This document shows, piece by piece, positions 23,070 through 64,000 of a stretch of 64,000 nucleotides of DNA. The translations under genes were made by a program, and so were the position numbers. The number at the start of each line of letters is the position of its first letter. Position 1 is the first letter of the stretch. Under the pieces are notes generated by a model. That model saw only the letters and a list, made by a program, of their open reading frames with translations, was not told where the DNA came from and ran no database searches. The DNA is from Candidatus Hydrogenedens sp. Its GTDB lineage: Bacteria; Hydrogenedentota; Hydrogenedentia; Hydrogenedentales; Hydrogenedentaceae. The DNA is taken from the NCBI GenBank assembly GCA_049968235.1, contig JBMFRC010000007.1:1-64000 (forward strand), given 5' to 3'.

Positions 23070-25256
23070 ATGTTAAAAAAACTATGCATTCTACTAATTG
23101 CTATCCTTTTCTCAACTTATTTTTACTCTTTTTCAGAAGACTATCTACTCCCCGAAGATTTTACTCGTTTTGTAGTTCCAGATGACAGTGAAGTAGGCAC
23201 CGTAATGACGGAATATCTATGGTACCATCTTTTTAAGAGACTCGGGAATGGAAACACCCTTTTCAATAAAGAATATCTGCTCTGTGCAGATACATGGGTA
23301 AATGATTTTATAGAGCCACATAGAAACAAATCTATACAGGAGGTTCACCGGGAAGACCTTCTATCCATCCGAATAGACGATGAAGGCTACATTGATACAC
23401 ATCAACATCTTTCTCATGCTCATGATTCCGGTTGGCCCTTCCCATTATGGACACAGACCTCCGGTCAAAAAGATAAGGGAATAGGCTGGCATTTTCAACC
23501 GCTGGAACAGGTCCCCGGTTGGGTAGGTGAAAATTTACGACATGCTAAAAATGATTCTACATGTGGCGAAAATGCTATTAAACAGTGGGAACTCCAGAAT
23601 TTGACTTCGCATGGTATCTTTGAAAATAAGTGGAAATTGGAAATTACAGGCGAAGGTTCCCCTACCCTTACTTCAAAACTTAGCCTAAATCTAACTGCTG
23701 AGGATATTCCTTTTTTTCAATTGCGGTGGAAACGGGATATTCAGACACAAAACAATCTGCTTCCCTATATGGAATGGAAACGAGTAGGAGATAAGGATTT
23801 CTCACCTAAAAGAAGAATTTATTTCTATTATCAGAACACAGCACTCACCCCTCCCGGATGGGCTCATTCACATATTCCTGTCTACAAACACCCACAATGG
23901 AATGGAACTATTGACCGGATTCGCCTCTGTTTAGCACCCGGACCATGTTCCGGAACATTCCTTATAGACTCCTTTTTCTCTCTTTTTGATACACGCCATA
24001 CTATTAATAACCCCATTTATATTCTGGCTTGTCAGTATTACTTTAACTGGACAGGGGATATTGACTTTTTACGACAGGTTATTAATAAAATGCGATTAGC
24101 ACTACAATATCAGCGGAAAGAATTAGGTGGGGACACGAACCTTTGCATTGTTAACACCTGGATAGGACATGACGGTATCCCAGGCTATAAAATCATGGGA
24201 AAAGAAAAAAAATTTAACATAGGGCATGGGATAGGAAGTAATTATTGGGACTTGTTACCTTTTGGTGGATATGATTGTTACGCTACAAATCAATATCATG
24301 CTTCCCTACTTGCTATGGCAGAAATGGAAGAAGCGATTTTGCAACATCCGGAATGGAATATCCCCCGGGGTGCCCTAGCCCTTGACCCAAAAGAACTTCG
24401 TGAACATGCTCAAAAAGTCCGCGAAAAAGCCCAATCTCTGTTCTGGGATAATGACAAAAAACGTTTTTTTGCCTGTATTGACCGCAATGGAGAAAAACAT
24501 GACTATGGTTTTACTTTTCTAAATCTCGATTGTATCTGGTATGGCATTGCTTCTCATAAACAGGCAGATGAAATTCTCAAATGGCTCGATGGAGAACGAA
24601 TTATTGAGTCAGATACTTCAAAAGGGGATGATATTTACCATTGGCGGTTCGGACCACGTGCAACGACATTGCGGAACATTGATTGGTATGTCTTCTGCTG
24701 GTCACATCCTGAAAATATCCCATGGGGCGGGCAAGTTCAGGACGGTGGTGCTGTCTTAGGTTTTTCTTTCTATGATTTATGGGCAAGATTGCAAATATTA
24801 GGTCCGGATAACGCATGGCAACGCCTCAAAAAAATCGTGGAATGGGAAAAAGAAGTCCGTAGTGCCGGTGGATACAGAAAATATTACGAAGATGGAAAAC
24901 AAGGGACAACATTACAAGGGTGCAACACACCAGGCGGATTAGGAATAGATTGCGAATTTTTTGAAAGCAGTTTATTGCCTTCTATATTCACTTACGGTTT
25001 CATGGGCATATCACCAAGACCTGATAAACTCGAAATAATGCCTAACTTACCAGATAATATTAACAGCATGACCATTAAGAACTTAAAATATAAAGAAAAT
25101 GTTTTAAATATTACCGCTACACATAACGATTTAAGTGTTGAAGTAACAAAAAATATGCCTCAATTCCCTATTTGCATAAAATATGTCAACTCCAAACAAA
25201 CACCCTCTCAGGGAAAAGAAAAGACAATTTCCGAACTCGGAACCTATACATTTTAA
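23070..25256 (+). CDS. Secreted 728-aa protein, possibly a glycoside-hydrolase-like (alpha/alpha)6-barrel enzyme
   Basis: Signal peptide. Trp/Tyr-rich composition typical of carbohydrate-active enzymes. No family-specific catalytic motif recognised. Confidence 0.3.
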   Translation: MLKKLCILLIAILFSTYFYSFSEDYLLPEDFTRFVVPDDSEVGTVMTEYLWYHLFKRLGNGNTLFNKEYLLCADTWVNDFIEPHRNKSIQEVHREDLLSIRIDDEGYIDTHQHLSHAHDSGWPFPLWTQTSGQKDKGIGWHFQPLEQVPGWVGENLRHAKNDSTCGENAIKQWELQNLTSHGIFENKWKLEITGEGSPTLTSKLSLNLTAEDIPFFQLRWKRDIQTQNNLLPYMEWKRVGDKDFSPKRRIYFYYQNTALTPPGWAHSHIPVYKHPQWNGTIDRIRLCLAPGPCSGTFLIDSFFSLFDTRHTINNPIYILACQYYFNWTGDIDFLRQVINKMRLALQYQRKELGGDTNLCIVNTWIGHDGIPGYKIMGKEKKFNIGHGIGSNYWDLLPFGGYDCYATNQYHASLLAMAEMEEAILQHPEWNIPRGALALDPKELREHAQKVREKAQSLFWDNDKKRFFACIDRNGEKHDYGFTFLNLDCIWYGIASHKQADEILKWLDGERIIESDTSKGDDIYHWRFGPRATTLRNIDWYVFCWSHPENIPWGGQVQDGGAVLGFSFYDLWARLQILGPDNAWQRLKKIVEWEKEVRSAGGYRKYYEDGKQGTTLQGCNTPGGLGIDCEFFESSLLPSIFTYGFMGISPRPDKLEIMPNLPDNINSMTIKNLKYKENVLNITATHNDLSVEVTKNMPQFPICIKYVNSKQTPSQGKEKTISELGTYTF

Positions 25257-25282: not shown

Positions 25283-28200
25283 CTAAAAACAGAAGCCGTC
25301 TTCGCTATTCCCAGGACAGAGGGAGTAATGTCCAATGTTAAATATCTGAATTAATCGTAATAATTCTCCAAGGTTAATTTGCCAATCTTGTGGATTGTAA
25401 TCGGATGAATGCGGATAGCAGGAATGGTCTCCATCTAAACCGGGAGAGTAACCATCTTCAGTCCCTTCTTCACAGTGATAACCTCGTATATTAAAGAATT
25501 GTATGACTCGAAGAAGTTCGGTTAAATTAATTGTTCCATCGTTATTTGAATCTGCTGAATGGTGTGTGATTACTTCGCCCTCACCTTCTTGCAAGCCTTC
25601 TCCTTCTATTATACCTTCACCTTCAAATGTTCCTTCAGTTACTCCTTCGCCATCCACTGCTCCTTCGCCTTCTGTTGGTGTTCCTTCACCTTCCATTATT
25701 CCTTCACCTTCCAGTGGTGTCCCCTCACCTTCTAATGTGCCTTCTATTATTCCTTCGGAGCAAGGTCCGGTAGATACATAAATAGTAACTACGGAGCCCG
25801 TAATTATTTGTGTTCCACTGGCTGGCTCCTGTCCAAAAACGATACCTGGTTCTACTCCATCATTGCATTCTGTAACAACACTTACAGTTAATTCCGCAGT
25901 GTTAATTTGGTATTCTGCGGATGACTGTGTTAATCCAATTACATATGGCACAATGGTCATACAAGGACCCAGAGATACTGTAATATCCACAGAAGACCCT
26001 TCCGGAACTTGAGTTCCTGCTGGTAAACTTTGTATAAAAACAATTCCTTCATCATACTGATTGGAACATTGATAATTGACATTACCTATTAAAAGATTTG
26101 CATTAGCAAGTATCAGTTCTGCTTGTTCTACCGCAAACCCAACTATAGCAGGAACATTTGTTGGGCATGGTCCTGAGGAAACTTTCATATCCACAGCATA
26201 CGATTCAGCAACAATATTGTTTTCTTCTGGTGTCTGTGAAAATACCGTTCCTGCTGGATATGCTGTGTTACATTGAACCGAGACCGAACCTCTGTTTAGT
26301 CCTAACTCTGTCAAGGTATTATTTGCTTCTTCCTGACCTAAATCTATTAGTCGCGGAATACTTACAAATTGAATAAGGGGAGTATCTTTCAATTGTGGGT
26401 AACTTTGTGTTTTGGATGGTACATACCACACATTTGCAAAATCCCAACCTGCAATTAAATATGTGTTTATATTTAATAATTCCGTAGTGGTTTTTCCTGT
26501 CCCTCCCCAAGAAGTATTCATACGACTTGTTATTACATTCCAGAATGAGTTCTTTGTTTCTCCTCCGGACTGATACCCAATCAATCCACCAATATAGCCA
26601 CTTATTCCTGATACTTTTCCAATCGAATAACAATTTTCAATAGTCCCCCCAGTAAGATAACCAACCAGTCCTCCTGAATAGAAGGAAGCTTTAACTGTTC
26701 CTGTCGCAAAGCAATTGGTAATAGTACCACCCGTATTCTTTCCGGCAAGCCCTCCTAAATAATTTTGACCATCTAAGTATACATTTGCCCAGCATTTACT
26801 TATTGCCCACGCATTGCTTCCAACAATGCCACCGCAATTATCACTCGCCTTAATTGTTCCTGTACTTGTGCAATATGATACATTTCCATCGTTAGAACCA
26901 ACAATTCCTCCTGCACCGAACGGTGTATTGGTTATATTCATATTAACCTCTGAATAACATTGAGTTACAATATCCTGGTTTTGTCCAACAATTCCGCCGG
27001 TATTTGAATTATTTTGAGAATTACTTAAAATAACATTTGCATAACAGTTTGATATATTCCCATTTTGATTTAATCCCGAAATTCCACCAAGATTGCCTTT
27101 ACCCAATAATGTTCCACTCACCGAAATATTGATAATAGCCCCACCTTCACAAACTCCAATCAAACCTCCTGTATTATTTTTGCCTGAAATGCTGACATCT
27201 TCCAAAATTAGATTTTTAATAATGGCATTTCCCGATATCTTTCCAAATAACCCTATATTATCAGTAGATGATCTATTAATTGTCAGATTTTTAATTTTAA
27301 AACCTTTACCATCAAAATAACCTGTAAAAGGATTATATTGGTTTCCTATAGGAGCGAATCCCAGCCTACCATTCCATTCCGCAGTATTACTCGCATCGAT
27401 ATCCTGACTTAATTCATATCCTCCGTCTAATGGATAATCTGCTGAATTTCCTATTAGTTGTAATTCATCTATACTTGATAGAACTTTTGTTGGTGGAGGA
27501 CAGGGACCATCTGACACAACTAAATTAACGCTATATCCTAAAGGGGCTTCCCAGCCGGGCAATGGGTCTGAGGTGACAACATTTCCATACCCAACGGTAT
27601 CTGAGCATTGATATGATATTTCGCCGACGGTCAATGATGTGGAGATAATTATATCCTGTGCCTCTTCGAGTGGAATGTTATATACAGAAGGTACAGTAGT
27701 GGTTACAAATAGATAAGGATACACAGTATCGTTATCATTGGTCCATGTAAATTCAAAGTCCCAGCCTTCTGCCTCGAATGTTGCACTTTCCAACATTTCT
27801 TCAGTTGTTTTTCCTGTTCCACCAGCGGATGAGTTATAATTCGAAGTATCTTTATCCCAGAATGAACGAATTACATTACCCCAATTGTAGCCTATCAACC
27901 CACCGGAATTGGTTGCACCTTCCGTTACTGAACCTTTAGAATAGGTTTCTTCTACATTGGCAAAATTTAATCCAACAAGTCCTCCCCCGTATTCATGACA
28001 GAATACATTAGAGTGTGAATAGCATCGGTATATTGTGCCTTGATTTACTCCTATCAAGCCCCCAACATAACTTTCAGAACTGATTACTTCACCTTCAGAA
28101 TAAGATTTGCGTATATACCCTTTATTCTTTCCTGCAATTCCACCGATGTATGAACTACCAGAAACATTCGCATTTACATTAGAAAAGTAAATTCCTGATT

Positions 28201-30079
28201 CAGCATCGTTATCGGCACAAATTCCACCGGCATAGTCTGTTGAAGAAGTAATTACAGAATTATCTATGATTGAACAGGTGTTTATACTGCCCCTATTCTT
28301 TGAGACCAGACCCCCAGTATAACTATTACCATTTGCTACACAGTCCGAAATAACTATTTTTTGTATACTACCAAAATTCTCAGACGCTAATACTGCTGTA
28401 CTATCACCACCTGTTATTCTTGCTCCCGAAAAGGTTAAATTCGAAATAGTTGCGGTTGTGTCTAAATATTTAAATAGAGCCACCCCTTGTTCATCAGGTC
28501 GATTTATATACAAGTTCGTAATAGTATACCCCCCGCCTATTATTGTTCCATTGAACCAGAATACATTCGTTCCAATTGGTGCAAATCCTTTGCCTTCATT
28601 CCACGAATAAGTTTCAAAAGCATCTATGTCTGAAGTAATTGTGTATGTCCAAAACAAGGGATAATTTATATTATTTCCGATAGATTGCAGGTCGGATATG
28701 TTATTTATAGATATACTCTGGTCGGGTAAAAACTTTACGAACAATGATGTGGAAGAGGACATTGTCCAAACAATAGGTGTTTCTATAGGGACTATGAAAG
28801 ATTTGTTTGTTCCGGAGTATAATTCATACCCGGCAAAACGATATCCATCATTTGCCGACGGCGTTAATTTAACTATGCTCCATAGGTTATACGGTGGTTC
28901 AGGTTGTGCATCTACAGTGCCATTTTCAGTGTAAATGGTTAGTGCTAATTCCTCCGTTGTGGAAGGAAAAATTTGCAGGTAGGGTCTTGTTTTACCACTA
29001 TCCTGCGACCACACTGAGGTGTAATCCCATCTGACGGATTGAAAAATATCCGGAACTAACATCTGGTCTGTATACAGTTGTCCTCCTCCTGCAGTCTGTG
29101 TCTGCTGTGTTGCATCAATATCAAAAAATGAAACTTGCACTTTTGAAGAGTCACCTGCTCCTACGAGTCCTCCAACATTACTTTTGCCATAAACAAGACC
29201 GGCGGAAAAACATTCTGAAACAATTGACGAATTACTTCCAATTAATCCGCCCACGGTATCCTTTCCAAATGTCCAGCAGGTAGAGAAACATTGAGTTATA
29301 GTTGAATAAGACAATGAAGTTGTTACACCTGCAAAACCTCCAACTTGACTTCCATCTCCATAAACCAAACCTGTTGAACAACACTGTTTAATCTGTGTAG
29401 AAGATGAACCTAAGACTCCTCCTATTGTATTTTGTCCTATAATAAAAATATCTTTTACAAAACAATTCTGGAGTATACCCTCACTCATAGTCCCTGCAAT
29501 ACCCCCTAAAAAAGCAACTCCATTTACTTTTGAATTTACTATTTTTATATCTTCAATAAGATGCCTTTCATCATACCCCGATTGATTTGTGGAACCTATC
29601 CGTAGAATACTTCCTGCTAAGCATCCGACATTAGTTCCTCCTGTTATTTCTGCATTTTCTATTATAAGATTTTTAACTTTTCCTACATAGAATTCAGGTG
29701 CAGAAGAACCATGAGAAATGATATGTGTAGCAACATATCTAAAAATACCGACATTGCTTTCATTCGGACGATTTATATGCAACCCCGTTATTTTGTGTCC
29801 CTGACCATCAAAAGTTCCACAAAAAGGTTCTGTATAAGTGCCGATAGGTTGAAATCCTTCACCTCCATTCCAGCCAAATGTGGCTAAAGCATCGATATCC
29901 TGAGTTAAGACATAATTACCATTACGAGGATAACCCGGGTCATTTCCAATTAGTTGCAGTTTTTCAATTGTATCAATCTGAACCTGTGCTGATAGGTTAG
30001 ATATACATACAGTAAATGACGCGACCACTATTAATAACAAATAATTTCTTTTTGCTATGTCCATATATAAAATCTCCAA
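25283..30079 (-). CDS. Giant secreted surface protein (1598 aa). Multiple GLUG-motif repeats, three PASTA-like modules, an EGEG-repeat linker and a C-terminal tandem dockerin-like module.
   Basis: Signal peptide. More than 20 GGLxG/GGIxG (GLUG-type) repeats. …GxVxxQxPxxGTxxxxGSxVxxxVSxGPC modules (PASTA-like). (EGEG)n tract. C-terminal D-x-N-x-D-G-x-I-N-x-x-ELLRxIQxFN in two copies. Confidence 0.75.
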   Translation of the reverse strand: MEILYMDIAKRNYLLLIVVASFTVCISNLSAQVQIDTIEKLQLIGNDPGYPRNGNYVLTQDIDALATFGWNGGEGFQPIGTYTEPFCGTFDGQGHKITGLHINRPNESNVGIFRYVATHIISHGSSAPEFYVGKVKNLIIENAEITGGTNVGCLAGSILRIGSTNQSGYDERHLIEDIKIVNSKVNGVAFLGGIAGTMSEGILQNCFVKDIFIIGQNTIGGVLGSSSTQIKQCCSTGLVYGDGSQVGGFAGVTTSLSYSTITQCFSTCWTFGKDTVGGLIGSNSSIVSECFSAGLVYGKSNVGGLVGAGDSSKVQVSFFDIDATQQTQTAGGGQLYTDQMLVPDIFQSVRWDYTSVWSQDSGKTRPYLQIFPSTTEELALTIYTENGTVDAQPEPPYNLWSIVKLTPSANDGYRFAGYELYSGTNKSFIVPIETPIVWTMSSSTSLFVKFLPDQSISINNISDLQSIGNNINYPLFWTYTITSDIDAFETYSWNEGKGFAPIGTNVFWFNGTIIGGGYTITNLYINRPDEQGVALFKYLDTTATISNLTFSGARITGGDSTAVLASENFGSIQKIVISDCVANGNSYTGGLVSKNRGSINTCSIIDNSVITSSTDYAGGICADNDAESGIYFSNVNANVSGSSYIGGIAGKNKGYIRKSYSEGEVISSESYVGGLIGVNQGTIYRCYSHSNVFCHEYGGGLVGLNFANVEETYSKGSVTEGATNSGGLIGYNWGNVIRSFWDKDTSNYNSSAGGTGKTTEEMLESATFEAEGWDFEFTWTNDNDTVYPYLFVTTTVPSVYNIPLEEAQDIIISTSLTVGEISYQCSDTVGYGNVVTSDPLPGWEAPLGYSVNLVVSDGPCPPPTKVLSSIDELQLIGNSADYPLDGGYELSQDIDASNTAEWNGRLGFAPIGNQYNPFTGYFDGKGFKIKNLTINRSSTDNIGLFGKISGNAIIKNLILEDVSISGKNNTGGLIGVCEGGAIINISVSGTLLGKGNLGGISGLNQNGNISNCYANVILSNSQNNSNTGGIVGQNQDIVTQCYSEVNMNITNTPFGAGGIVGSNDGNVSYCTSTGTIKASDNCGGIVGSNAWAISKCWANVYLDGQNYLGGLAGKNTGGTITNCFATGTVKASFYSGGLVGYLTGGTIENCYSIGKVSGISGYIGGLIGYQSGGETKNSFWNVITSRMNTSWGGTGKTTTELLNINTYLIAGWDFANVWYVPSKTQSYPQLKDTPLIQFVSIPRLIDLGQEEANNTLTELGLNRGSVSVQCNTAYPAGTVFSQTPEENNIVAESYAVDMKVSSGPCPTNVPAIVGFAVEQAELILANANLLIGNVNYQCSNQYDEGIVFIQSLPAGTQVPEGSSVDITVSLGPCMTIVPYVIGLTQSSAEYQINTAELTVSVVTECNDGVEPGIVFGQEPASGTQIITGSVVTIYVSTGPCSEGIIEGTLEGEGTPLEGEGIMEGEGTPTEGEGAVDGEGVTEGTFEGEGIIEGEGLQEGEGEVITHHSADSNNDGTINLTELLRVIQFFNIRGYHCEEGTEDGYSPGLDGDHSCYPHSSDYNPQDWQINLGELLRLIQIFNIGHYSLCPGNSEDGFCF
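25571..25760 (-). repeat. In-frame short tandem repeat DNA encoding the (T/I)-E-G-E-G linker of the giant protein
   Basis: Periodic gaaggtgaaggt-type units. The antisense frame yields the artefactual PSPS ORF at 25503-25781. Confidence 0.6.
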
Positions 30080-34746: not shown

Positions 34747-37404
34747 ATGCAAAAAAGGAAAAACATCTGTTCCAATTTACAGCAATCTGCTATAATAGCA
34801 CCATGTAAAAAGGGGTTTTATGTTCCTGGTTTTCTTCTGTTTATTCCCTTACTTTTCATTGTTTGTTCACCATCCCTTGCTATTGATGATGGAACGAACT
34901 CTTTATGGAAACAGCAAGAAAATACATGGGTCTTCCAACTCAACAATAATCTCAATATGTCGTATCTCATATCGGAAAACAAAGAGAAAAATGAAATTAA
35001 ACTCACATTAGAATATTCCAACGGTATTTCTCTCTCTACGGAACAAATTTTACAAAACAAACCTGATTTTGTATCTATCGATTGTTCAAAAATAGACAAA
35101 TCTGGCATGGAATATACCTTTTCTATCGCATCCAACCATGCGTATAATGTCCAAAAAAACGAAAATAGTTTATCTATCATTTTTAAACCAGCGGGAAAAT
35201 ACCCTTCTGAAATTGAAAAGGTTGCTTCAGATATACAATCGCTCATAAATAATTCTAATATTAGAGGAACATCTATTGTTGATGAAAAAATTAACTCTTT
35301 AGACAACACAATATCTAAACTCCGGGTTGAAAATGAACTTAAATTAGCCAAACAAATCACACCTGAATTAATATTACAAAAACCCAATCAAGTTTTTAGT
35401 CAGAATATAAATGTAGCACAATCGCTTTCCGTTGGAAATGTAGGGAATCCAGAAAGAAAAATTGAAATTCGTGAAGCAAAACCTGTGGATACACCTCCCC
35501 CCCCACCCCCTCCTGCAGTAGAAAATACAGATACCCAACCGCAGGAGAATATTTCCCAAACACCTCCTGAAACACATAAAGAAGAAGCCTCTCAACAACC
35601 CCAAACTACACAGGAAACTCCCGCAGAAGAAGGAACGCAACCTCCTATGCCTCGTGAAGCAACACCGGAACAGGCAATCGATGCTACAGCAGAGATAACA
35701 AGAGAATTAAGAGAATTGCAAACTACAAATGAAGAACCAGATAAACAATTAGTTCCTATAACGCCAGAAGAAACAAAACCTGCAGGAAAAATAACCGAGG
35801 CAGAAAAACCAAAAGAGGAAATTTTATCAGAGGTAAAAATTAAACCTTCGCCTAAAGGTTTAGATACCATCACGGACTTTGAATGTGAACAGATGCCTTT
35901 AGCTAAAGTAGTTCCTTTATTAGCTTACAAAGCAGGGATAAATGTAATAGCGGGAGCAGACCTTAAAGGCAATGTTACTATGAGTTTGAAGCAAGTAACT
36001 CTTAGAAAAGCCATTGAAGCTGCTTTAAGAATGAATGGGCTTGGAATAATTCAAGAAGAAAATATCTATCGAATTGTTCCTTATGAAGAAGCGCTGTCCA
36101 GTGATAGAAGTACTATTGTTGTCCGTCTGGAAAACGCTAAAGCAACCGAAATAAGAAAAGTTCTCGAAGAAATTACAAAAGGGACAAAAGGTAGGGAATA
36201 TATTACCCTTAGTGCCAATGATACTACAAATGTAGTAATTCTCTCGGGACCAGAAGAAAACATTCAAGGTTTGGCACAAATGGCAAAGGAATTGGATATA
36301 GCCAAACCTATTATTCCTACAATAACAGCAACAATAAAACTAAACTATGCAGACCCCGACGAACTGGCAAAATCTATTCAAAAAATTCTCACACCTAAAA
36401 CAGGAAATGTATCTGCAGATGCTCGTGCAAGAAATATTATTGTAACCGATATTCCGGTGGTAGTTGAACAAGTAAAAGAAATTGTGAAAACCCTTGATAT
36501 TCCTGTTAAACAGGTCCTTATTGATACAATGGTTGTTGACGCTACATTAGGAGATGAATCACAAACAGGTATTGATTGGTTATTAAAATCGGTTCGTAAT
36601 CAGAGTTGGAGAGATTTTGTAATGTATGGACCTGAGGGTAGAAAAGTAGGTAATATTCAGCAACTTGATTTAGGTGGTGCATCCCAAACAGGTGATACGA
36701 TAGGCAACCTTACCTTCAATATTCTTACTCGTGAAATCGATTGGAAAGGTATAATTAAAGCCCAGATACAAAATCGGAATGGACATCTCATTTCCAACCC
36801 TGTTGTAGCCACTATTGAGAATAAACCTGCAACAATAACAATCTCTCAAGAAATTCCTTATATCGACCTTTCACAAACAAGTGAGGGAGGTGCTTTGACA
36901 AATACACGATTCAAACAGATAGGTACTGTTCTTGAGGTTACCCCGCGGGTTACTCATGATAATCATGTAATTATAGACATTAAGGGTAAAGAAAGCACTG
37001 TGGTCGGTGAGTTTAATGGTGTTCCCATTGAAGATATGAGACAGGTTACTAGCACACTTCATATTAATAGCGGTCAAACTATCTTTGTTGGCGGCTTAAG
37101 AAAACGCAATGATAGTGTAACCTCGCAGAAAATGCCCATACTCGGAGATATACCTGTATTAAATGTTGTCTTCAAATCTAATCAACGGAAGGCTCAAATT
37201 AATGAGTTATTAATCTTCCTTACTTGCTCTGTTTTAGAACAGGAATTACCGGAATTAACAGATGAGCAGAAAAAAGCCTATGACGACGCAAAACAGGCAC
37301 CTATGGATGCAGACCTCAGTAAATATATGGGACATGATATCCTTCACCCAAAAGATATATCTACTCCTCCCTATAAATGGAAAAGGGTCAAAAAAGACCA
37401 ATAG
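34747..37404 (+). CDS. pilQ: Type IV pilus secretin PilQ, with a long Pro/Gln/Glu-rich linker between N-terminal domains
   Basis: C-terminal secretin domain (…VLEVTPRVTHDNHVIIDIKGKES…IFVGGLRKRND…MPILGDIPVLNVVFKS…ELLIFLT…). PPPPPPPA linker. Confidence 0.9.
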   Translation: MQKRKNICSNLQQSAIIAPCKKGFYVPGFLLFIPLLFIVCSPSLAIDDGTNSLWKQQENTWVFQLNNNLNMSYLISENKEKNEIKLTLEYSNGISLSTEQILQNKPDFVSIDCSKIDKSGMEYTFSIASNHAYNVQKNENSLSIIFKPAGKYPSEIEKVASDIQSLINNSNIRGTSIVDEKINSLDNTISKLRVENELKLAKQITPELILQKPNQVFSQNINVAQSLSVGNVGNPERKIEIREAKPVDTPPPPPPPAVENTDTQPQENISQTPPETHKEEASQQPQTTQETPAEEGTQPPMPREATPEQAIDATAEITRELRELQTTNEEPDKQLVPITPEETKPAGKITEAEKPKEEILSEVKIKPSPKGLDTITDFECEQMPLAKVVPLLAYKAGINVIAGADLKGNVTMSLKQVTLRKAIEAALRMNGLGIIQEENIYRIVPYEEALSSDRSTIVVRLENAKATEIRKVLEEITKGTKGREYITLSANDTTNVVILSGPEENIQGLAQMAKELDIAKPIIPTITATIKLNYADPDELAKSIQKILTPKTGNVSADARARNIIVTDIPVVVEQVKEIVKTLDIPVKQVLIDTMVVDATLGDESQTGIDWLLKSVRNQSWRDFVMYGPEGRKVGNIQQLDLGGASQTGDTIGNLTFNILTREIDWKGIIKAQIQNRNGHLISNPVVATIENKPATITISQEIPYIDLSQTSEGGALTNTRFKQIGTVLEVTPRVTHDNHVIIDIKGKESTVVGEFNGVPIEDMRQVTSTLHINSGQTIFVGGLRKRNDSVTSQKMPILGDIPVLNVVFKSNQRKAQINELLIFLTCSVLEQELPELTDEQKKAYDDAKQAPMDADLSKYMGHDILHPKDISTPPYKWKRVKKDQ

Positions 37405-38568: not shown

Positions 38569-41763
<3,195 letters not shown>

Positions 41764-59103: not shown

Positions 59104-61803
59104 CTAATATTCATAGGCTCCCATATCATAATCAGACCCATCCCCGGTAACACCTGAAATGGCGTCTCGTCCACGGAGATTTCCTTCAATATCTGTCAAT
59201 ACATTTCCCCATTCATTAGGACTTGTATCCATTCCTCTGTCGATACAAGGAGAACTACTATTCAATCTAAAATTACCGGCACTCGGGAAAATAAATAATG
59301 GGTCTGAACTTATATTTCCTTCTCCATTCTTCACCTGCTGTGTGTTACAATACATAAAAATTGCATCATTCCCGAGAGAATATGTCCCCTGTCCAGAATT
59401 TTGCCATATAATAGTATTCGCAAATGCTACATTGCTATAGTAGTTAAACACAGCCCCACCATGACTCGTCGTTGTTAAATCTGCTTGATTATCATATAAG
59501 GTACAGTTTGAAAAAACAACATTTTCACACAGGTCTATATGCACCCCACCCGTTCTTTCAATAGAAGAACTAAAATCATAAGCCTTATTTCTAAATCCTA
59601 TGGCATTTACAATTTTTGCAGAACTTTTTGTCATATAAATCATTCCTGCACTTGCTCGGGAAAAACCCCTATGGTCATTTGTAGAAACCGTATTATTTCT
59701 AAAATCTGAGTTTCTCAAATTTATATCGCTATACCATAGGTAAATAGCCCCTCCTAATGCTTTTGCGAAAGCACCATAAACCCCACCGTTAACAGTCCCA
59801 TGCCCTATCCCTTCTGCGGAACATGCATTTGAATAGAACAAACAGTTATCTATAGTTAATGAAGTATTGTAAGCAAATATTCCTCCACCAGCAGACACAA
59901 CGGTTATGTTCTGTGTAGAGGTTTGCCAAGTTCCTTGTGATGAAATTCGATTTGACTCAAAACGAGAATTCTGAATATTAATTACACTGTCTGTCACATA
60001 AATAGCAGAACCATAATTATAACTGGAATCGGATGAAACATTTTCTATTACATTCTCAATGAAATTACAGTTATATAAAGATAATTTCCCACTGATACAA
60101 CATATGCCAGCACCTACTCCGACTGATTTATTCTGGAAAAATGTACAGTTCTTGACAACCATTTTCTTTGCGGGAATATATAGACCACCTCCATCCTGAG
60201 CATCGCTGTAAACATAATCATAGCGGGCATCTCCCCCTTTTATTATGAATCCATTCAGTTCGCTATAATTTTCACCTTTAACTACATGCCAGGCTGGTTG
60301 TCCATCTCTTGCGATACTGCCATTTATAATAGTGATATTTGTTTGATAATTTCTTTGATTTAGTTCAGTTTCCGTACCTTGAAATCCCCCATAGACATTC
60401 ACCAATTCTCGAAGTATTAATGCTCCATAAGGATTTAAAGGATTTGAACGAACTTCATTATAATCTCCCGCAGAAACCCATACCTCTCCTCCACCTAACT
60501 CGAACGCTCTATCTATCCCTTCTTGCAAAGTAGGAAATGCTGTTGCCCATGATAATCCATCAGGTTCAATTTCTTCTTTTTGCCCCTTTGTCTGAGGTTT
60601 TTTTACATATATTCGTGAACCCTGGATTATTTCAATATAATCTGTTTTTTGTTTTATACTTTGTCCTGCACTGGTCGTAACGATTAATGTTACGGTATAA
60701 ATTCCCGGAGATAGATATGTGTGAGTAGGATTCCTCAAGAAACTAAAACTTCCATCCCCGAAATTCCACTGCCAGGCTGGTTCTGTTCCATTGCCCATTT
60801 TACTTTCATCACGGAACTCGATTTCATTATTGATTATGTTTTTTACAGGGGTAGCCGAAAAGTCTGCTATGGGAGGATAAGGAAAGGAACTATAAATACG
60901 TATGTAACCCGCTAAAATAGAAAGCGGATATATCAATCCATCAGGATAACTGGTAGCCATCACATTTTCTGCATAAATAGAATAAATATCATTAAATTCA
61001 GCATTTTCAGAGACTTTAAACCTCAAAATAGCATATATGCCTGATGACATTCCTGAAGTGGATGTGCCTGTTGTCGTTAATCTAAGTTTCCCTGGAATGA
61101 TTTGTCCTACTGATAGATTTCGACCTGTATTTTGAATCGCCGGTCCTATCATAAAATCCAGATATTGTATCCGATTGGAATTGAAAATCAGGTCAAACTG
61201 AACATATCCTAATATAACATTTTTAGTTTCAAGAGTAAGCGGAATATTTATTTCTGTATTAGGAACTGTATCCTTTCTATCAACAACAATACGAGCATAA
61301 TTATATGTCTCTCCTTCTCCTTCCCCTTCCAATACTCCTTCCGCAGAACCTTCTCCTTCGAAACCTTCCGGAGTCCCTTCAGGTGCCCCTTCAATAATTA
61401 CAGGACATAAAACAGGGCGAAAACCATCTTCTTTAGATGGGTCTATTTCATAACCACATACATTATAAAACTGAACCAAACGAAGAAGCTCATTTAATGT
61501 TATTCGCCAGAAATTATTCGGTTCATAATCGCTATCATGGGGTTCACATGACTGGTCCCCCGCTCCCGGTGCATATCCGTCTTCTCCAGCAGGGTCACAA
61601 TGATAGGCACGGGCATTAAAAAACTGGATTACACGTAGTAATTCGCTTAAATCAATTTTATAATCTTGATTCTTATCTGCAGTATGATAATCTCCCTTCC
61701 CAACCGAATCAACTGCATAGGAAGCATTACTTAAAATCCCGTTTAATACACACAAAAAAATGGCAGTTACAAACAGCCCTAACAATGTTATTTTACGTCT
61801 CAT
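59104..61803 (-). CDS. Secreted 899-aa protein: N-terminal tandem dockerin-like module, EGEG linker, PKD domain and right-handed parallel beta-helix (pectate-lyase-fold) region
   Basis: Signal peptide. DLSELLRVIQFFN…ITLNELLRLVQFYN. EGEGSAEGVLEGEGEGE. WQWNFGDGS…NPTHTY (PKD). Repeated NxxFxxN beta-helix turns. Confidence 0.65.
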   Translation of the reverse strand: MRRKITLLGLFVTAIFLCVLNGILSNASYAVDSVGKGDYHTADKNQDYKIDLSELLRVIQFFNARAYHCDPAGEDGYAPGAGDQSCEPHDSDYEPNNFWRITLNELLRLVQFYNVCGYEIDPSKEDGFRPVLCPVIIEGAPEGTPEGFEGEGSAEGVLEGEGEGETYNYARIVVDRKDTVPNTEINIPLTLETKNVILGYVQFDLIFNSNRIQYLDFMIGPAIQNTGRNLSVGQIIPGKLRLTTTGTSTSGMSSGIYAILRFKVSENAEFNDIYSIYAENVMATSYPDGLIYPLSILAGYIRIYSSFPYPPIADFSATPVKNIINNEIEFRDESKMGNGTEPAWQWNFGDGSFSFLRNPTHTYLSPGIYTVTLIVTTSAGQSIKQKTDYIEIIQGSRIYVKKPQTKGQKEEIEPDGLSWATAFPTLQEGIDRAFELGGGEVWVSAGDYNEVRSNPLNPYGALILRELVNVYGGFQGTETELNQRNYQTNITIINGSIARDGQPAWHVVKGENYSELNGFIIKGGDARYDYVYSDAQDGGGLYIPAKKMVVKNCTFFQNKSVGVGAGICCISGKLSLYNCNFIENVIENVSSDSSYNYGSAIYVTDSVINIQNSRFESNRISSQGTWQTSTQNITVVSAGGGIFAYNTSLTIDNCLFYSNACSAEGIGHGTVNGGVYGAFAKALGGAIYLWYSDINLRNSDFRNNTVSTNDHRGFSRASAGMIYMTKSSAKIVNAIGFRNKAYDFSSSIERTGGVHIDLCENVVFSNCTLYDNQADLTTTSHGGAVFNYYSNVAFANTIIWQNSGQGTYSLGNDAIFMYCNTQQVKNGEGNISSDPLFIFPSAGNFRLNSSSPCIDRGMDTSPNEWGNVLTDIEGNLRGRDAISGVTGDGSDYDMGAYEY

Positions 61804-61922: not shown

Positions 61923-63590
61923 TTAATGGAAGAAACTTTTTTTACAGGTTCCGAAGATATTCCCACAGGTTGTTATGCTAAGTTCCTTAATATAATTTTC
62001 AAGTTCACCCATAGTTATTGTCTGATTCTTATTCGCATCAATTTCTGAGAAAAATTCCTGTGTAACCTGAGGATATTTTTGTATGATTTCTGAAAAAGTT
62101 AGCACTCCATCTCCATCTATATTACAATAACTGAATGTGGAGAATATCTGCAAAACAAGGTTTCTCTTTTCATCTTTATCCAATGTTTTAATTTTCTGAT
62201 AACTGACATCTAGCGTAATATAAAAGGCGTGTGGAATATAGACCTGCTTTTGAGGGGGAGTTATATATCCATCTATATCAGAAAAAATAATTTTATAAAA
62301 ACCTATTGGAAATATTGCTATTTCACCGGATTTCTTCCATTCTTCCTTTCCTTGTATCTGCCATCCAGCATTTAACTTAACTACTTCATCCGGGAAAATA
62401 TTAACTACGATTCCTCCCGATTTCCAATAATTTACTTCTATAACTTTATCCTCGTTCTCACCAATTTCTACTTGAATATATTCAGAAGTTGACCAACCTA
62501 CCGGTTGAGTAAAAAACACTTTATAAATACCTGCATAAAGATTTTCTACTTTATCACCACTATTATACAGATTATCATCACCTTCAATTTGCCACTGAGC
62601 ACCACTTAAAACCGCATCATTAGGAGTTAAAATAACCGTTAATGAACTATATAATGGGGTTTCTCCCTCTCCTTCTAAGGACCCTTCCGGAATACCTTCC
62701 GGAATACCTTCCAAAATACCTTCACCTTCCGGAGGTTCTCCTTCCCCACACCCCACACATCCTCCTCCATTATCTTTCTTTGCTGGATTCAAGACACTCC
62801 CTTTATATCCCTCTACACCATACCCTTTTATTATATTCCACCGATATTCACCATAATTGCAGACCCCATCCCTATCCGCATCCCCTACCTTACTTAAATA
62901 CCTCGCCATACTTAAATCAAATTGACTCATATCCGGCATCGGAACATATATCGGTAAGTCTTCTATCATCCCTAAAAGCATATCTATTGTCGTCTTTTCT
63001 CCTACCGTTGTCAATCCCGATACTACCCCTTCAAATTTACTCCTATCCAATAGTATAAATACCACAGGCTGAACCAACTGTATTTCATCTGCATATAACC
63101 TCGTGCTTTCTACATTATAGCGATATGCCTGCTTCACACAACAATGTATCTCCTGAGTATTTTCCCTCAATACTTCATCTAATAACCACGCTTGAACTAC
63201 ATCTATCATCCCATTCGTATCCAAATCTGCCGTATCCGGTTCCTCTCCTACATACTCATACAACCACCGTAAATCTTCCTCAAAATGGCTCTCTCCCAAT
63301 ACATCATCACATCCCCCTATACACGGCTCTATATTGCATGGGTCAAACAAACCCTCTCCTTCCCCTTCTATCACTCCTTCTATACTACCTTCGATAATAA
63401 CCTCTCCTTCCATCACTCCTTCTATACTACCTTCTATTACTCCTTCTCCATTTACCATGCCCTCCGTTATCCCTTCATTACTTACAATCGTATCATTTGC
63501 GAACAATGCTTGTTGTAAAAAATACCCCCAAAAAATAAGCATAAAGAATGCAAAAACACTATTCCTATACGCTTTACTTTTCTTATCCAT
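61923..63590 (-). CDS. Secreted protein with two EGEG-type acidic linkers and a C-terminal EF-hand/dockerin-like Ca-binding pair
   Basis: Start chosen at the internal Met (MDKKSKAYRNSVFAFFMLIFWG… signal peptide) rather than the track's 63704. (IEGx)n and (PEGx)n tracts. C-terminal NIDGDGVLTFSEI…DANKNQTITMGELENYI. Confidence 0.5.
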   Translation of the reverse strand: MDKKSKAYRNSVFAFFMLIFWGYFLQQALFANDTIVSNEGITEGMVNGEGVIEGSIEGVMEGEVIIEGSIEGVIEGEGEGLFDPCNIEPCIGGCDDVLGESHFEEDLRWLYEYVGEEPDTADLDTNGMIDVVQAWLLDEVLRENTQEIHCCVKQAYRYNVESTRLYADEIQLVQPVVFILLDRSKFEGVVSGLTTVGEKTTIDMLLGMIEDLPIYVPMPDMSQFDLSMARYLSKVGDADRDGVCNYGEYRWNIIKGYGVEGYKGSVLNPAKKDNGGGCVGCGEGEPPEGEGILEGIPEGIPEGSLEGEGETPLYSSLTVILTPNDAVLSGAQWQIEGDDNLYNSGDKVENLYAGIYKVFFTQPVGWSTSEYIQVEIGENEDKVIEVNYWKSGGIVVNIFPDEVVKLNAGWQIQGKEEWKKSGEIAIFPIGFYKIIFSDIDGYITPPQKQVYIPHAFYITLDVSYQKIKTLDKDEKRNLVLQIFSTFSYCNIDGDGVLTFSEIIQKYPQVTQEFFSEIDANKNQTITMGELENYIKELSITTCGNIFGTCKKSFFH

Positions 63591-63652
63591 ATAATTCTTT
63601 CTATATCTGTTCTTAATTATATCCTTTAAAGAGGAGATTTTGTTCAATAAAT

Positions 63653-64000
63653 TTAAATTTCTTCTATAGCCATTGCGGTTGTCTTTACAAGATGTGTCTT
63701 CCAATTTAGTTTCCTGATTAACTCTTTACCTTGTTTTTTAGACTCTACAATAACAAAAAAGGTTGACCCACTACCTGTCATTCCCACATACGGAAAACCC
63801 ATTTTTTTTATTTTTAATTTTAATTCATATAATTCTGGATAAATACAAAATGCGGGTAATTCTAATCGATTGTATATAACCTTCTTCCAATTCCTTTTCC
63901 GTAATGCATATATTACTTTTCTAAACCTAATACTATATTTAATTGCAACTACATGTGAAGGTCGAATACTTAATGCGGGATGTTGATACACCTTTGCGGT
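63653..64000 (-). CDS. ispE: 3' portion of a GHMP-kinase gene, probably 4-diphosphocytidyl-2-C-methyl-D-erythritol kinase; start lies beyond the window end
   Basis: C-terminal GHMP motif MTGSGSTFFVI, positioned as in IspE. Reading frame is open to the window edge. Confidence 0.4.
   Translation of the reverse strand, partial: TAKVYQHPALSIRPSHVVAIKYSIRFRKVIYALRKRNWKKVIYNRLELPAFCIYPELYELKLKIKKMGFPYVGMTGSGSTFFVIVESKKQGKELIRKLNWKTHLVKTTAMAIEEI

What the first reader, a model, noticed from the sequence alone, without database searches (positions are those of the whole stretch)
25286..25570. Tandem dockerin-like module shared by two secreted proteins
The last approx. 95 aa of the 1598-aa protein read SNNDGTINLTELLRVIQFFN…YHC…EDGY…NPQDWQINLGELLRLIQIFN. 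They are nearly superimposable on residues 40-130 of the 59104-61803 protein (DKNQDYKIDLSELLRVIQFFN…YHCDPAGEDGY…NFWRITLNELLRLVQFYN). Each half fits a dockerin/EF-hand-like D-x-N-x-D-G-x-I-N-x-x-ELL pattern, but the spacer is longer than in classical type I dockerins and contains conserved Cys and EDGY. The module sits C-terminally in one protein and N-terminally in the other, always next to an (EGEG)n linker. That points to a portable anchoring or sorting module, perhaps cohesin-dockerin-like or a lineage-specific cell-surface attachment system. I see no cohesin-like partner in the window.
Basis: seen in the sequence. Interest (0 to 1): 0.65.

Follow-up and report, generated by a model that had tools for sequence, protein, structure and literature searches.

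The report
New dockerin-like docking module, with cohesin
Two secreted proteins of this uncultured Hydrogenedentota bacterium share a ~95-residue calcium-loop module that no domain database recognises, that ends dozens of large surface-type proteins per genome in this phylum, and that most likely plugs them into cohesin domains, one of which sits unnoticed in the second protein of the window.

Summary
The last 93-95 aa of the 1598-aa protein (25286-25570, minus strand) and aa 39-134 of the 899-aa protein align at 58% identity (E=1e-36). Each copy is an internal duplication with a ~51-aa period.

The module belongs to a very large family that Pfam and NCBIfam do not model. There are at least 581 confirmed copies among GTDB species representatives, almost all in Hydrogenedentota, and up to 31 ORFs from one MAG in my sample. 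About 102 of 106 copies sit at the extreme C-terminus of signal-peptide-bearing adhesin-like proteins, usually after an E/G-rich linker.

- Loop 1 is a canonical EF/dockerin Ca loop. Loop 2 is one residue longer.
- Each helix is followed by a hairpin carrying Cys pairs that are gained or lost together.

Best reading (about 0.5): a new, expanded dockerin class for cohesin-based surface display. Binding itself is untested.

The parts
25283..30079 (-). Gene for the 1598-aa cargo protein. Order of parts: signal peptide, GLUG-repeat regions, at least 4 PASTA domains, E/G linker, C-terminal module.
   Evidence: ORF list. Pfam gives PASTA E=6e-39 and Glug E=8e-33. A 1610-aa protein with the same GLUG/PASTA/C-terminal-module architecture lies in L002.
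25574..25759 (-). E/G-rich linker of the cargo protein (aa 1441-1502, 61% E+G).
   Evidence: The same kind of linker lies upstream of most family members.
25286..25570 (-). Module copy 1, at the extreme C-terminus. The core is aa 1506-1598 (25286-25564). It has two Ca-loop + helix + Cys-hairpin repeats.
59104..61803 (-). Gene for the 899-aa protein. Order of parts: signal peptide, N-terminal module, E/G linker, cohesin, PKD, right-handed beta-helix.
   Evidence: Pfam PKD_4 E=2e-16. Orthologues P0073, P0074 and P0097 share the architecture.
61402..61689 (-). Module copy 2 (aa 39-134), N-terminal, directly after the signal peptide. Its loop 2 and second Cys pair are variant.
   Evidence: pLDDT is about 90-95 in the two-domain model.
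61309..61401 (-). E/G-rich linker between the module and the cohesin (aa 135-165).
   Evidence: Predicted disordered, pLDDT 46-52.
60889..61305 (-). Divergent cohesin domain (aa 167-305).

Best explanation
**What the module is.** It is a previously unmodelled, expanded class of dockerin-type docking domain. Each of its two ~51-aa repeats has three parts:
- a Ca2+-binding loop (canonical in repeat 1, one residue longer in repeat 2);
- an 'F' helix with the near-invariant face ELLR(V/L)IQFFN;
- a beta-hairpin (G-Y-H-C ... T-E-D-G-Y-x-P-G) that classical dockerins lack, pinned by a disulfide.

**How I think it works.** Proteins are exported by their Sec signal peptide and fold outside the cytoplasm, where Ca2+ and disulfides form. 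The module, held on a flexible E/G-rich tether, then docks non-covalently onto a cohesin domain of another protein. Dozens of large adhesin-like proteins would in this way be assembled on or tethered to the cell surface.

**Roles of the two window proteins.** The 1598-aa GLUG/PASTA protein is a cargo. The 899-aa protein is both docked (through its N-terminal module) and a docking platform (through its cohesin), like an adaptor scaffoldin.

**Shown versus inferred.**
- Shown: the family, its size and position, the motif anatomy, the confident fold model, the cohesin in the window, the recurrent fusion and gene adjacency with cohesins, and the absence from Pfam and NCBIfam.
- Inferred: Ca2+ binding, the disulfides, surface location, and above all that the binding partner is a cohesin.
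For: 1. **Tandem F-hand anatomy, as in dockerins.** In 92 copies loop 1 is D(100%)-x-N/D(100%)-x-D/N(100%)-...-I/V(100%)-...-E(100%). Both helices carry invariant E-L-L-R-x-I-Q-x-x-N. AlphaFold2 places a helix after each loop and none before it.
3. **It is used as dockerins are used.**
   - It sits at the extreme C-terminus in about 102 of 106 ORFs.
   - It usually follows a flexible linker.
   - The carrier proteins have signal peptides and unrelated cargo domains.
   - There are many paralogues per genome: up to 31 ORFs from one MAG within only 80 sampled loci, and at least 581 loci overall.
4. **Cohesins are physically linked to it.**
   - In the window the module is fused to a cohesin, and this fusion is conserved in orthologues.
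   - 50 of the top 120 hits of a profile that itself contained a cohesin are signal peptide-cohesin-module proteins of 234-286 aa, so this count is biased towards such proteins.
   - L017 encodes a larger protein with a cohesin followed by the module.
5. **Gene neighbourhoods repeat.** In three independent contigs (L081, L082, L085) a cohesin-module gene lies directly beside genes for signal peptide-cohesin-C-terminal hydrophobic helix proteins. L045 encodes a two-cohesin protein with a C-terminal hydrophobic helix 3 kb from a module gene.
6. **Classical dockerins are rare where the module is abundant.** I found 1 clear hit against 106 module ORFs in about 1 Mb.
7. **Paralogues are unusually alike, which fits one shared partner surface.** Mean pairwise identity is 0.575, against 0.29 for the cohesin in the same proteins.
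Against: - **No binding evidence of any kind.**
- **Sequence similarity covers a single Ca loop plus helix, which any EF-hand shares.** The repeat unit is more than twice the classical length, and position 12 is Glu as in EF-hands, not the Asp I recall as usual in dockerins.
- **AlphaFold2 did not place the module of the 899-aa protein on its own cohesin.** pTM is 0.58 although both domains are confident. A protein that carries both is not expected to self-bind, so this is a weak negative.
- **The neighbouring cohesins may have other partners.** The operons with cohesins also encode classical dockerins, which could be the real partners of those cohesins.
- **Conservation is lopsided.** The cohesins seen are poorly conserved (21-35% identity) while the module is almost invariant across the phylum. 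No cohesin class stands out as the partner.
- **Few cohesins near module genes.** Only 3 cohesin-bearing ORFs turned up next to 106 module ORFs in the loci and window searched.
Confidence: 0.5

Rival explanations
1. A cell-envelope anchor that binds something other than a cohesin. On this reading the Ca2+- and disulfide-stabilised module tethers secreted proteins to a conserved non-cohesin receptor, such as an outer-membrane protein, LPS or exopolysaccharide, or an S-layer. It would work as SLH domains or CBMs do. The cohesin-module proteins would use their cohesin to capture classical dockerins and use the module only to stay on the cell.
For: - The module is almost invariant across the phylum, while all cohesins seen are very divergent. 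That suits a conserved non-cohesin ligand.
- Classical dockerins are encoded in the same operons as the cohesins and could be their true partners.
- The cargoes are adhesin-like surface proteins that need tethering.
- There are many conserved aromatic and His residues.
- AlphaFold2 predicts no cis docking.
Against: - No known carbohydrate- or envelope-binding family matches.
- The closest folds are protein-binding dockerins.
- Repeated fusion and adjacency specifically with cohesins would be a coincidence.
- No candidate receptor was identified.
Confidence: 0.25
2. A C-terminal secretion or sorting signal. The module would be recognised by a dedicated export or attachment machinery, in the way a T9SS C-terminal domain is, and might be cleaved afterwards.
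For: - The position is almost fixed: the second motif lies about 30 aa before the stop codon in about 102 of 106 ORFs.
- There are dozens of otherwise unrelated cargo proteins per genome.
- The distribution is lineage-restricted.
- The organism is a diderm with secretins, and one cohesin-module gene lies beside type II secretion genes.
Against: - A conserved orthologue group carries the module at the N-terminus, directly after the signal peptide. Other copies are N-terminal or internal (L023, L062, L044).
- Proteins with 2-3 tandem modules exist, one of them from a Candidatus Buchananbacteria MAG.
- The predicted fold is two helices with Ca loops, not the beta-sandwich I recall for T9SS C-terminal domains.
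- There is no hydrophobic helix or basic tail of the kind seen in sortase- or exosortase-type signals.
- Conservation is far higher than I would expect for a signal.
Confidence: 0.1
3. A Ca2+-dependent structural cap or calcium sensor, meaning an ordinary EF-hand pair with no docking role.
For: - The best sequence matches are EF-hand loops of troponin C and calmodulin (E 0.02-0.1).
- 12-14 of 47 members touch Pfam EF-hand models.
- Position 12 of loop 1 is Glu, as in EF-hands.
Against: - All those matches are below threshold and cover one loop only.
- No entering helix precedes either loop in the model, so these are F-hands rather than EF-hands.
- It does not explain the terminal position, the tether, the dozens of unrelated cargoes, or the link with cohesins.
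Confidence: 0.07

Closest known systems
Type I dockerin (Pfam PF00404) of cellulosomal and non-cellulosomal cohesin-dockerin systems
   Same: - A tandem duplication of Ca-loop + helix (F-hand).
- C-terminal, on a flexible linker, on many secreted paralogues per genome.
- Both helices are equally conserved, as I recall for dockerins with a dual binding mode.
- Dockerins are the best structural matches.
- It co-occurs with, and is fused to, cohesins.
   Different: - Each helix is followed by a Cys-bearing beta-hairpin with an invariant E-D-G-[YF].
- Loop 2 is a 13-residue D-Y-N-P-Q-D-W variant.
- Position 12 is Glu.
- It scores below the Pfam gathering threshold.
- The cargoes are adhesin-like (LRR, InlB B-repeat, PASTA, GLUG, Ig), not mainly glycoside hydrolases.
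- The host is a diderm of an uncultured phylum.
Adaptor and anchoring scaffoldins (proteins carrying both cohesin and dockerin), and the Clostridium perfringens NagH/NagJ cohesin-dockerin pairs
   Same: - The 899-aa window protein and the ~260-aa cohesin-module proteins combine a cohesin with a docking module.
- Neighbouring genes encode cohesins with a C-terminal hydrophobic helix, echoing the enzyme-to-adaptor-to-anchor hierarchy.
   Different: - Candidate anchoring is by a C-terminal hydrophobic helix with a basic tail, not by SLH domains or sortase motifs. No NCBIfam sorting-signal model matches it.
- There is no CBM and no enzyme-rich cargo set.
- Which cohesin binds which docking module is unknown.
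EF-hand pair (calmodulin / troponin C type)
   Same: Loop 1 fits the 12-residue EF-hand loop, with Glu at position 12. There are weak profile hits.
   Different: - No entering helix is predicted.
- The repeats are separated by about 50 aa that include hairpins and Cys pairs.
- The setting is extracellular and terminal.
- All scores are below the curated cut-offs.
T9SS C-terminal sorting domain (Por_Secre_tail)
   Same: A ~90-aa domain at the extreme C-terminus of many large, otherwise unrelated secreted proteins in one lineage.
   Different: - The predicted fold is different: two helices plus Ca loops, where I recall a beta-sandwich for the T9SS domain.
- N-terminal and tandem copies exist.
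- Sequence conservation is very high.

Membership tests
Dockerin type I (PF00404) | Score at or above the Pfam gathering threshold (22.9 bits). | tested here: not met
   The window module scores 18.3 bits (E=0.003), and the match covers only profile positions 34-57. Only 3 of 47 relatives match at E<0.01, the best at 4.4e-6.
Dockerin type I (PF00404) | Two tandem Ca-loop + helix (F-hand) segments. | tested here: met
   There are two loop + helix units per module: H20-32 and H71-83 in the model, with no helix before either loop. The repeats align to each other at E=1e-10. The period is about 51 aa, longer than the roughly 30-40 aa I recall for dockerins.
Dockerin type I (PF00404) | Ca-coordinating residues at loop positions 1, 3, 5, 9 and 12 in both repeats. 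| tested here: inconclusive
   Loop 1 has D, N/D, D/N and E, each 100% conserved, with N/S/D at position 9. Position 12 is Glu, not Asp. Loop 2 (D-Y-N-P-Q-D-W-x-I-x-L-x-E) needs a one-residue insertion to fit. Metal binding itself was not tested.
Dockerin type I (PF00404) | Dockerin fold. | tested here: inconclusive
   [not shown]
Dockerin type I (PF00404) | Binds a cohesin. | not testable with these tools
   The evidence is only circumstantial: fusion to and adjacency with cohesins. The single-chain AlphaFold2 model of module + cohesin gave pTM 0.58, so there was no confident docking.
Cohesin (PF00963), for aa 167-305 of the 899-aa protein | Direct match to the Pfam model. | tested here: not met
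   There is no Pfam hit even at E≤10.
Cohesin (PF00963), for aa 167-305 of the 899-aa protein | Sequence homology to bona fide cohesins. | tested here: met
   phmmer over 1.84 billion proteins gives P0075-P0082 at E=2e-13 to 3e-9. All of them match Pfam Cohesin, and one (P0077) has 8 cohesin matches, a CBM_3 and a dockerin. The best PDB sequence hits are cohesins (E=0.0011).
Cohesin (PF00963), for aa 167-305 of the 899-aa protein | Cohesin beta-sandwich fold. | tested here: met
   [not shown]
EF-hand pair | Helix-loop-helix with an entering helix, and a score above the curated cut-off. | tested here: not met
   No helix precedes either loop. EF-hand_1 scores 18.6 bits against a cut-off of 25.4.
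C-terminal sorting domains (T9SS CTD; PEP-CTERM, LPXTG or MYXO-CTERM type) | A strictly C-terminal position, together with either a beta-sandwich fold (T9SS) or a motif + hydrophobic helix + basic tail. | tested here: not met
   Conserved N-terminal, internal and tandem copies exist. The model is helical with Ca loops and has no hydrophobic tail. No NCBIfam model matches.

The most novel reading that the evidence does not exclude
Hydrogenedentota, with scattered relatives in Kiritimatiellae and a Candidatus Buchananbacteria MAG, use a distinct, phylum-wide cohesin-dockerin system built on a new dockerin class.

- The new class is about 95 aa long, has disulfide-pinned hairpins, and comes in two subtypes: a 4-Cys 'cargo' type and a 2-Cys 'adaptor' type.
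- The system would assemble dozens of adhesin-like proteins into a hierarchical surface complex: cargo, then cohesin-module adaptor, then membrane-anchored cohesin.
- It would be a non-cellulolytic 'adhesome' on a diderm envelope.
Probability: 0.4. Interest if true: 0.75.

Novelty: new variant of a known kind. Interest (0 to 1): 0.62.

Why it matters
- **It would broaden what cohesin-dockerin systems are for.** They are known mainly from cellulosomes of Gram-positive anaerobes. A separate, unrecognised docking-module class that ends dozens of large adhesin-like proteins per genome in an uncultured, globally distributed phylum would show the plug-and-socket principle used for general surface display on a diderm cell.
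- **It would explain a large block of unannotated sequence.** Every NCBI-named protein that consists of little more than the module is called 'hypothetical protein'. Those names come from metagenome-assembled genomes.
- **It would give an annotation handle.** An HMM of the module finds the secreted surface proteome of these organisms.
- **It might be useful in protein engineering.** A new, small, Ca-dependent, possibly orthogonal binding pair could be of value.
- **It has a practical consequence for assemblies.** Many copies in public data are cut at contig ends right at the E/G-rich linker, which suggests these repetitive linkers break assemblies and leave such proteins truncated in MAGs.

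Tried and rejected
- **Pfam and NCBIfam on the module and on both full proteins.** Only sub-threshold Dockerin_1 and EF-hand hits, and nothing in NCBIfam.
- **Profile search of the module against PDB sequences.** Only weak EF-hand loop matches, E≥0.02.
- **Pfam on the cohesin-like region, and a word-indexed homologue search.** Both found nothing. The exhaustive phmmer search was needed.
- **AlphaFold2 of module + linker + cohesin as one chain, as an interaction test.** Both domains were confident, but pTM was 0.58, so there was no confident docking. This is uninformative, because an adaptor need not bind itself.
- **AFDB Foldseek search.** The library was not available.
- **Clustering cohesin domains by architecture, to find a class specific for the module.** There was no clean separation.
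- **NCBIfam on the C-terminal hydrophobic tails of the anchored cohesins.** No PEP-CTERM, MYXO-CTERM or other sorting model matched.
- **A regex for classical dockerins.** It proved too insensitive on positive controls, so I replaced it with a small HMM.
- **Literature.** No paper contains the motif. Two Hydrogenedentota genome papers (PMC11406978, PMC10866078) do not mention dockerin or cohesin. PMC7038595 uses 'cohesin' and 'dockerin' only as functional categories of MAGs.
- **Chance or low-complexity artefact.** Rejected: E=1e-36, and there are hundreds of homologues.
Full report
**1. The observation**

The window holds the two ORFs described. One is 25283..30079 (-), 1598 aa. The other is 59104..61803 (-), 899 aa. 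Coordinates 25286-25570 are the last 95 codons of the first ORF.

BLASTP of the two module regions gives 58% identity over 92 residues, E=1e-36. The first repeat of one copy aligns to the second repeat of the other at E=1e-10. The module is therefore an internal duplication with a period of about 51 aa.

A six-frame motif scan finds only these two copies in the window. Both copies adjoin E/G-rich linkers of 62 and 31 aa, each 61% E+G. Both proteins begin with a signal-peptide-like hydrophobic segment.

**2. The family**

*Size and range.*
- A homologue search with the 99-aa module returned 72 proteins at E down to 3e-41.
- Every one that carries an organism name is from Candidatus Hydrogenedens or Hydrogenedentes MAGs, except one from Kiritimatiellae. 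The NCBI-named ones are almost all 'hypothetical protein, partial'.
- The best 80 loci are mostly from MAGs titled Hydrogenedentota, Hydrogenedentes or Hydrogenedens. The rest are titled 'uncultured Nitrospirales bacterium' or 'uncultured bacterium'.
- The closest is Ca. Hydrogenedens terephthalaticus, at 85% identity.
- The 899-aa protein is identical to a gene on contig JBMFPN010000074.1 of NCBI assembly GCA_049969095.1.

*Position and carriers.*
- The 80 loci contain 106 module-bearing ORFs, up to 31 of them from a single MAG.
- In about 102 of the 106, the module is at the extreme C-terminus. The second ELLR motif lies about 30 residues before the stop codon, and the tail reads ...EDG[FY]CPGxx.
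- Most complete carrier proteins begin with a signal-peptide-like segment.
- Most have an E/G-rich linker before the module. The median E+G fraction in the 50 aa upstream is 0.56.

*Cargo domains.* A Pfam census of 39 carrier proteins found the following:

| Pfam family | Proteins (of 39) |
|---|---|
| InlB B-repeat (Flg_new_2) | 14 |
| PASTA | 12 |
| LRR_4 (other LRR models fewer) | 10 |
| Bact_surface_Ig-like | 6 |
| GLUG | 6 |
| CHRD | 5 |
| P_proprotein | 4 |

Beta-propellers, Ig, fn3 and beta-helix also occur. This is an adhesin or surface-protein repertoire. It is not a glycoside-hydrolase set.

**3. Anatomy of the module**

Conservation was measured in 92 aligned copies.
- **Loop 1** reads D11(100%)-x-N/D13(100%)-x-D/N15(100%)-G/N-x-I/V18(100%)-x-L20-x-E22(100%). 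This is a canonical 12-residue EF-hand/dockerin loop.
- **Loop 2** reads D61-Y62-N63-P64-Q65-D66-W67-x-I69-x-L71-x-E73. It needs a one-residue insertion to fit the same pattern.
- **Helices.** Both loops run into helices with an invariant E-L-L-R-x-I-Q-x-x-N.
- **Hairpins.** Each helix is followed by G-[YF]-H-C ... [TS]-E-D-G-[YF]-x-P-G.
- **Cysteines.** Four Cys are about 98-99% conserved in the cargo-type copies.

In 40 cohesin-module proteins the first Cys pair is always present. The second pair is either both present (6) or both absent (34), and never one alone. I read this as two disulfide pairs. That is an inference.

**4. Structure of the module**

AlphaFold2 on a 47-sequence alignment gives pLDDT 92.9 and pTM 0.82. 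The order of elements is loop, helix 20-32, hairpin 35-47, loop, helix 71-83, hairpin 87-98. No helix precedes either loop.

| Test | Result |
|---|---|
| Foldseek vs PDB | 7 of the top 11 hits are dockerins, at E about 1 and probability ≤0.25 |
| hhalign, 92 modules vs six classical dockerins | 81% probability, over 25 columns only (one F-hand) |
| Pfam | Dockerin_1 at 18.3 bits (cut-off 22.9); 3 of 47 relatives hit it; 12-14 of 47 touch single EF-hand models |
| NCBIfam | Nothing |
| PDB sequence profile | Only weak EF-hand loops |

Dockerins are therefore the nearest known kind. Membership of the classical family is not established.

**5. The missed cohesin**

Residues 167-305 of the 899-aa protein looked cohesin-like by eye. 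The tests went as follows.
- Pfam and the word-indexed search found nothing.
- The best PDB sequence hits were cohesins: 5nrm_A and 5nrk_A at E=0.0011, then 6kgc_A and 4uyp_A.
- An exhaustive phmmer search over 1.84 billion representatives gave 59 hits.
- P0075-P0082 (E=2e-13 to 3e-9) all match Pfam Cohesin. One of them, P0077, has 8 cohesin matches, a CBM_3 and a dockerin.
- AlphaFold2 of aa 30-312 folds this region at pLDDT 93-98.

P0073, P0074 and P0097 are orthologues. All share the order signal peptide, module, E/G linker, cohesin, PKD, beta-helix. The N-terminal placement is thus a conserved feature of this one protein family.

**6. The module and cohesins elsewhere**

*Fusions.* A profile of the module + cohesin region found 813 proteins among the 8000 candidates scored. 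Of the top 120, 50 are proteins of 234-286 aa with the order signal peptide, cohesin, C-terminal module. One of them NCBI names 'cohesin domain-containing protein [Candidatus Hydrogenedentes bacterium]'. Because the query profile contained a cohesin, this count is biased towards such proteins. L017 encodes a large protein with a cohesin followed by the module.

*Gene neighbourhoods.* The arrangement repeats in independent contigs.

| Locus | Arrangement |
|---|---|
| L081 | classical-dockerin/TSP3-like protein; cohesin-module; cohesin + C-terminal hydrophobic helix + RRVRR tail; a second cohesin with a C-terminal helix. Two further small classical-dockerin proteins and another module protein lie alongside. 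|
| L082 | classical-dockerin/TSP3-like protein; cohesin-module; cohesin with a C-terminal helix |
| L085 | three consecutive cohesin genes with a C-terminal helix; cohesin-module. On the other strand, another cohesin-module gene and a classical dockerin. |
| L045 | a signal-peptide protein with two cohesins and a C-terminal hydrophobic helix, 3 kb from a module gene |

*Relative abundance.* In about 1 Mb around module genes, a small classical-dockerin HMM that recovered all five positive controls found only one clear classical dockerin, against 106 module ORFs.

**7. Mechanism**

The most economical reading is that the module is an expanded dockerin class. It would be exported by Sec, folded with Ca2+ and disulfides, held on an E/G tether, and docked onto cohesins.

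In the window, the GLUG/PASTA protein would be cargo. The 899-aa protein would be both cargo and platform, like an adaptor.

The strong and symmetric conservation of both helices points to one conserved recognition surface. Module mean pairwise identity is 0.575, against 0.29 for the cohesin in the same proteins, with no correlation between the two (rho=-0.02).

Several points count against this reading.
- Nothing here shows binding.
- AlphaFold2 did not dock the module onto the cohesin in the same chain (pTM 0.58). This is a weak negative, because adaptors should not self-bind.
- The structural similarity to dockerins is below significance.
- Classical dockerins in the same operons could be the true ligands of those cohesins.
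- No cohesin class stands out as the partner.

My estimates are:

| Model | Confidence |
|---|---|
| Cohesin-docking module | about 0.5 |
| Non-cohesin envelope anchor | about 0.25 |
| C-terminal sorting signal | about 0.1 |
| Plain EF-hand Ca module | about 0.07 |

The sorting-signal model is contradicted by the conserved N-terminal copies and by the tandem copies, one of them in a Ca. Buchananbacteria protein.

**8. Novelty**

The module is absent from Pfam (2025 copy) and NCBIfam (June 2026). It has no solved relative by sequence. The motif strings ELLRVIQ, ELLRLIQ and LLRVIQFFN occur in none of the searchable papers. Two Hydrogenedentota genome papers do not mention dockerin or cohesin.

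I file it as a new variant of a known kind, a dockerin-type docking module. It comes with a substantial unrecognised cohesin-linked system in an uncultured phylum. InterPro member databases other than Pfam and NCBIfam could not be checked here.

Noticed in passing
window 61923-63704 (-): The 593-aa gene next to the 899-aa protein has E/G-type linkers too (GEGVIEGSIEG..., EGEGILEGIPEG...). It has dockerin-like single loops (DLDTNGMIDVVQ, GDADRDGVCNYGEY). It ends in a canonical EF-hand pair (Pfam EF-hand_1 at 28.2 bits, above the cut-off), not the module. The adjacency is kept in GCA_049969095.1 (L084). L041 holds a 301-aa relative with the same GDADLDGVCN motif that does end in the module.
   Followed up: partly
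L081 8647-12650; L082 3-2775; L085 514-3828: A recurrent gene cluster. Its order is a protein with an N-terminal classical dockerin and a TSP3-like Asp-rich C-terminus, then a signal peptide-cohesin-module protein, then one to three cohesin proteins ending in a hydrophobic helix with a basic tail. Several tails have a G-C motif before the helix. No NCBIfam sorting-signal model matches them.
   Followed up: partly
P0132 (356 aa) and P0144 (335 aa, Candidatus Buchananbacteria): These proteins have an N-terminal hydrophobic segment followed by 2-3 complete tandem copies of a divergent version of the module (YHSADVNKDYKID ... ELLRLVQFYN ... GEDGF). The module therefore reaches beyond Hydrogenedentota and is not always terminal.
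   Followed up: no
40 signal peptide-cohesin-module proteins, versus cargo modules: There are two module subtypes. The cargo type has four Cys and a ...EDG[FY]CPG tail. The type on the small cohesin proteins mostly lacks the second Cys pair (34 of 40) and ends ...EDGFAPGP. This could mark two binding specificities.
   Followed up: partly
L001-L080: About a quarter of the module ORFs are cut at a contig end. Many database hits are short 'partial' proteins that begin inside the E/G-rich linker. L017 has a masked run inside such a linker. The repetitive linkers seem to break assemblies, so these proteins are systematically truncated in MAGs.
   Followed up: no
loci from CAYYRW01, CAYXPO01, CAZZMK01 and CAZJTZ01: Several MAGs rich in this module are titled 'uncultured Nitrospirales bacterium'. 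Their module proteins are 55-79% identical to the window copy, as are those from MAGs titled Hydrogenedentota. The titles may be mislabelled. I did not check this with marker genes.
   Followed up: no
window 59104-59271 (-), aa 844-899 of the 899-aa protein: [quoted passage not shown]
   Followed up: no
window 23070-25256 (+); 34747-37404 (+); 38569-41760 (-): Three neighbouring genes are worth noting. A 728-aa signal-peptide protein with a weak GH65 C-terminal match converges on the cargo gene. There is a secretin gene (Secretin, Secretin_N, STN), which shows a diderm envelope. There is also a GH2 beta-galactosidase.
   Followed up: no
window 30062-30079 (-): The 1598-aa ORF is called from a TTG. 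An ATG five codons downstream (MDIAKRNYLLL...) is an equally plausible start and precedes the signal-peptide-like segment.
   Followed up: no
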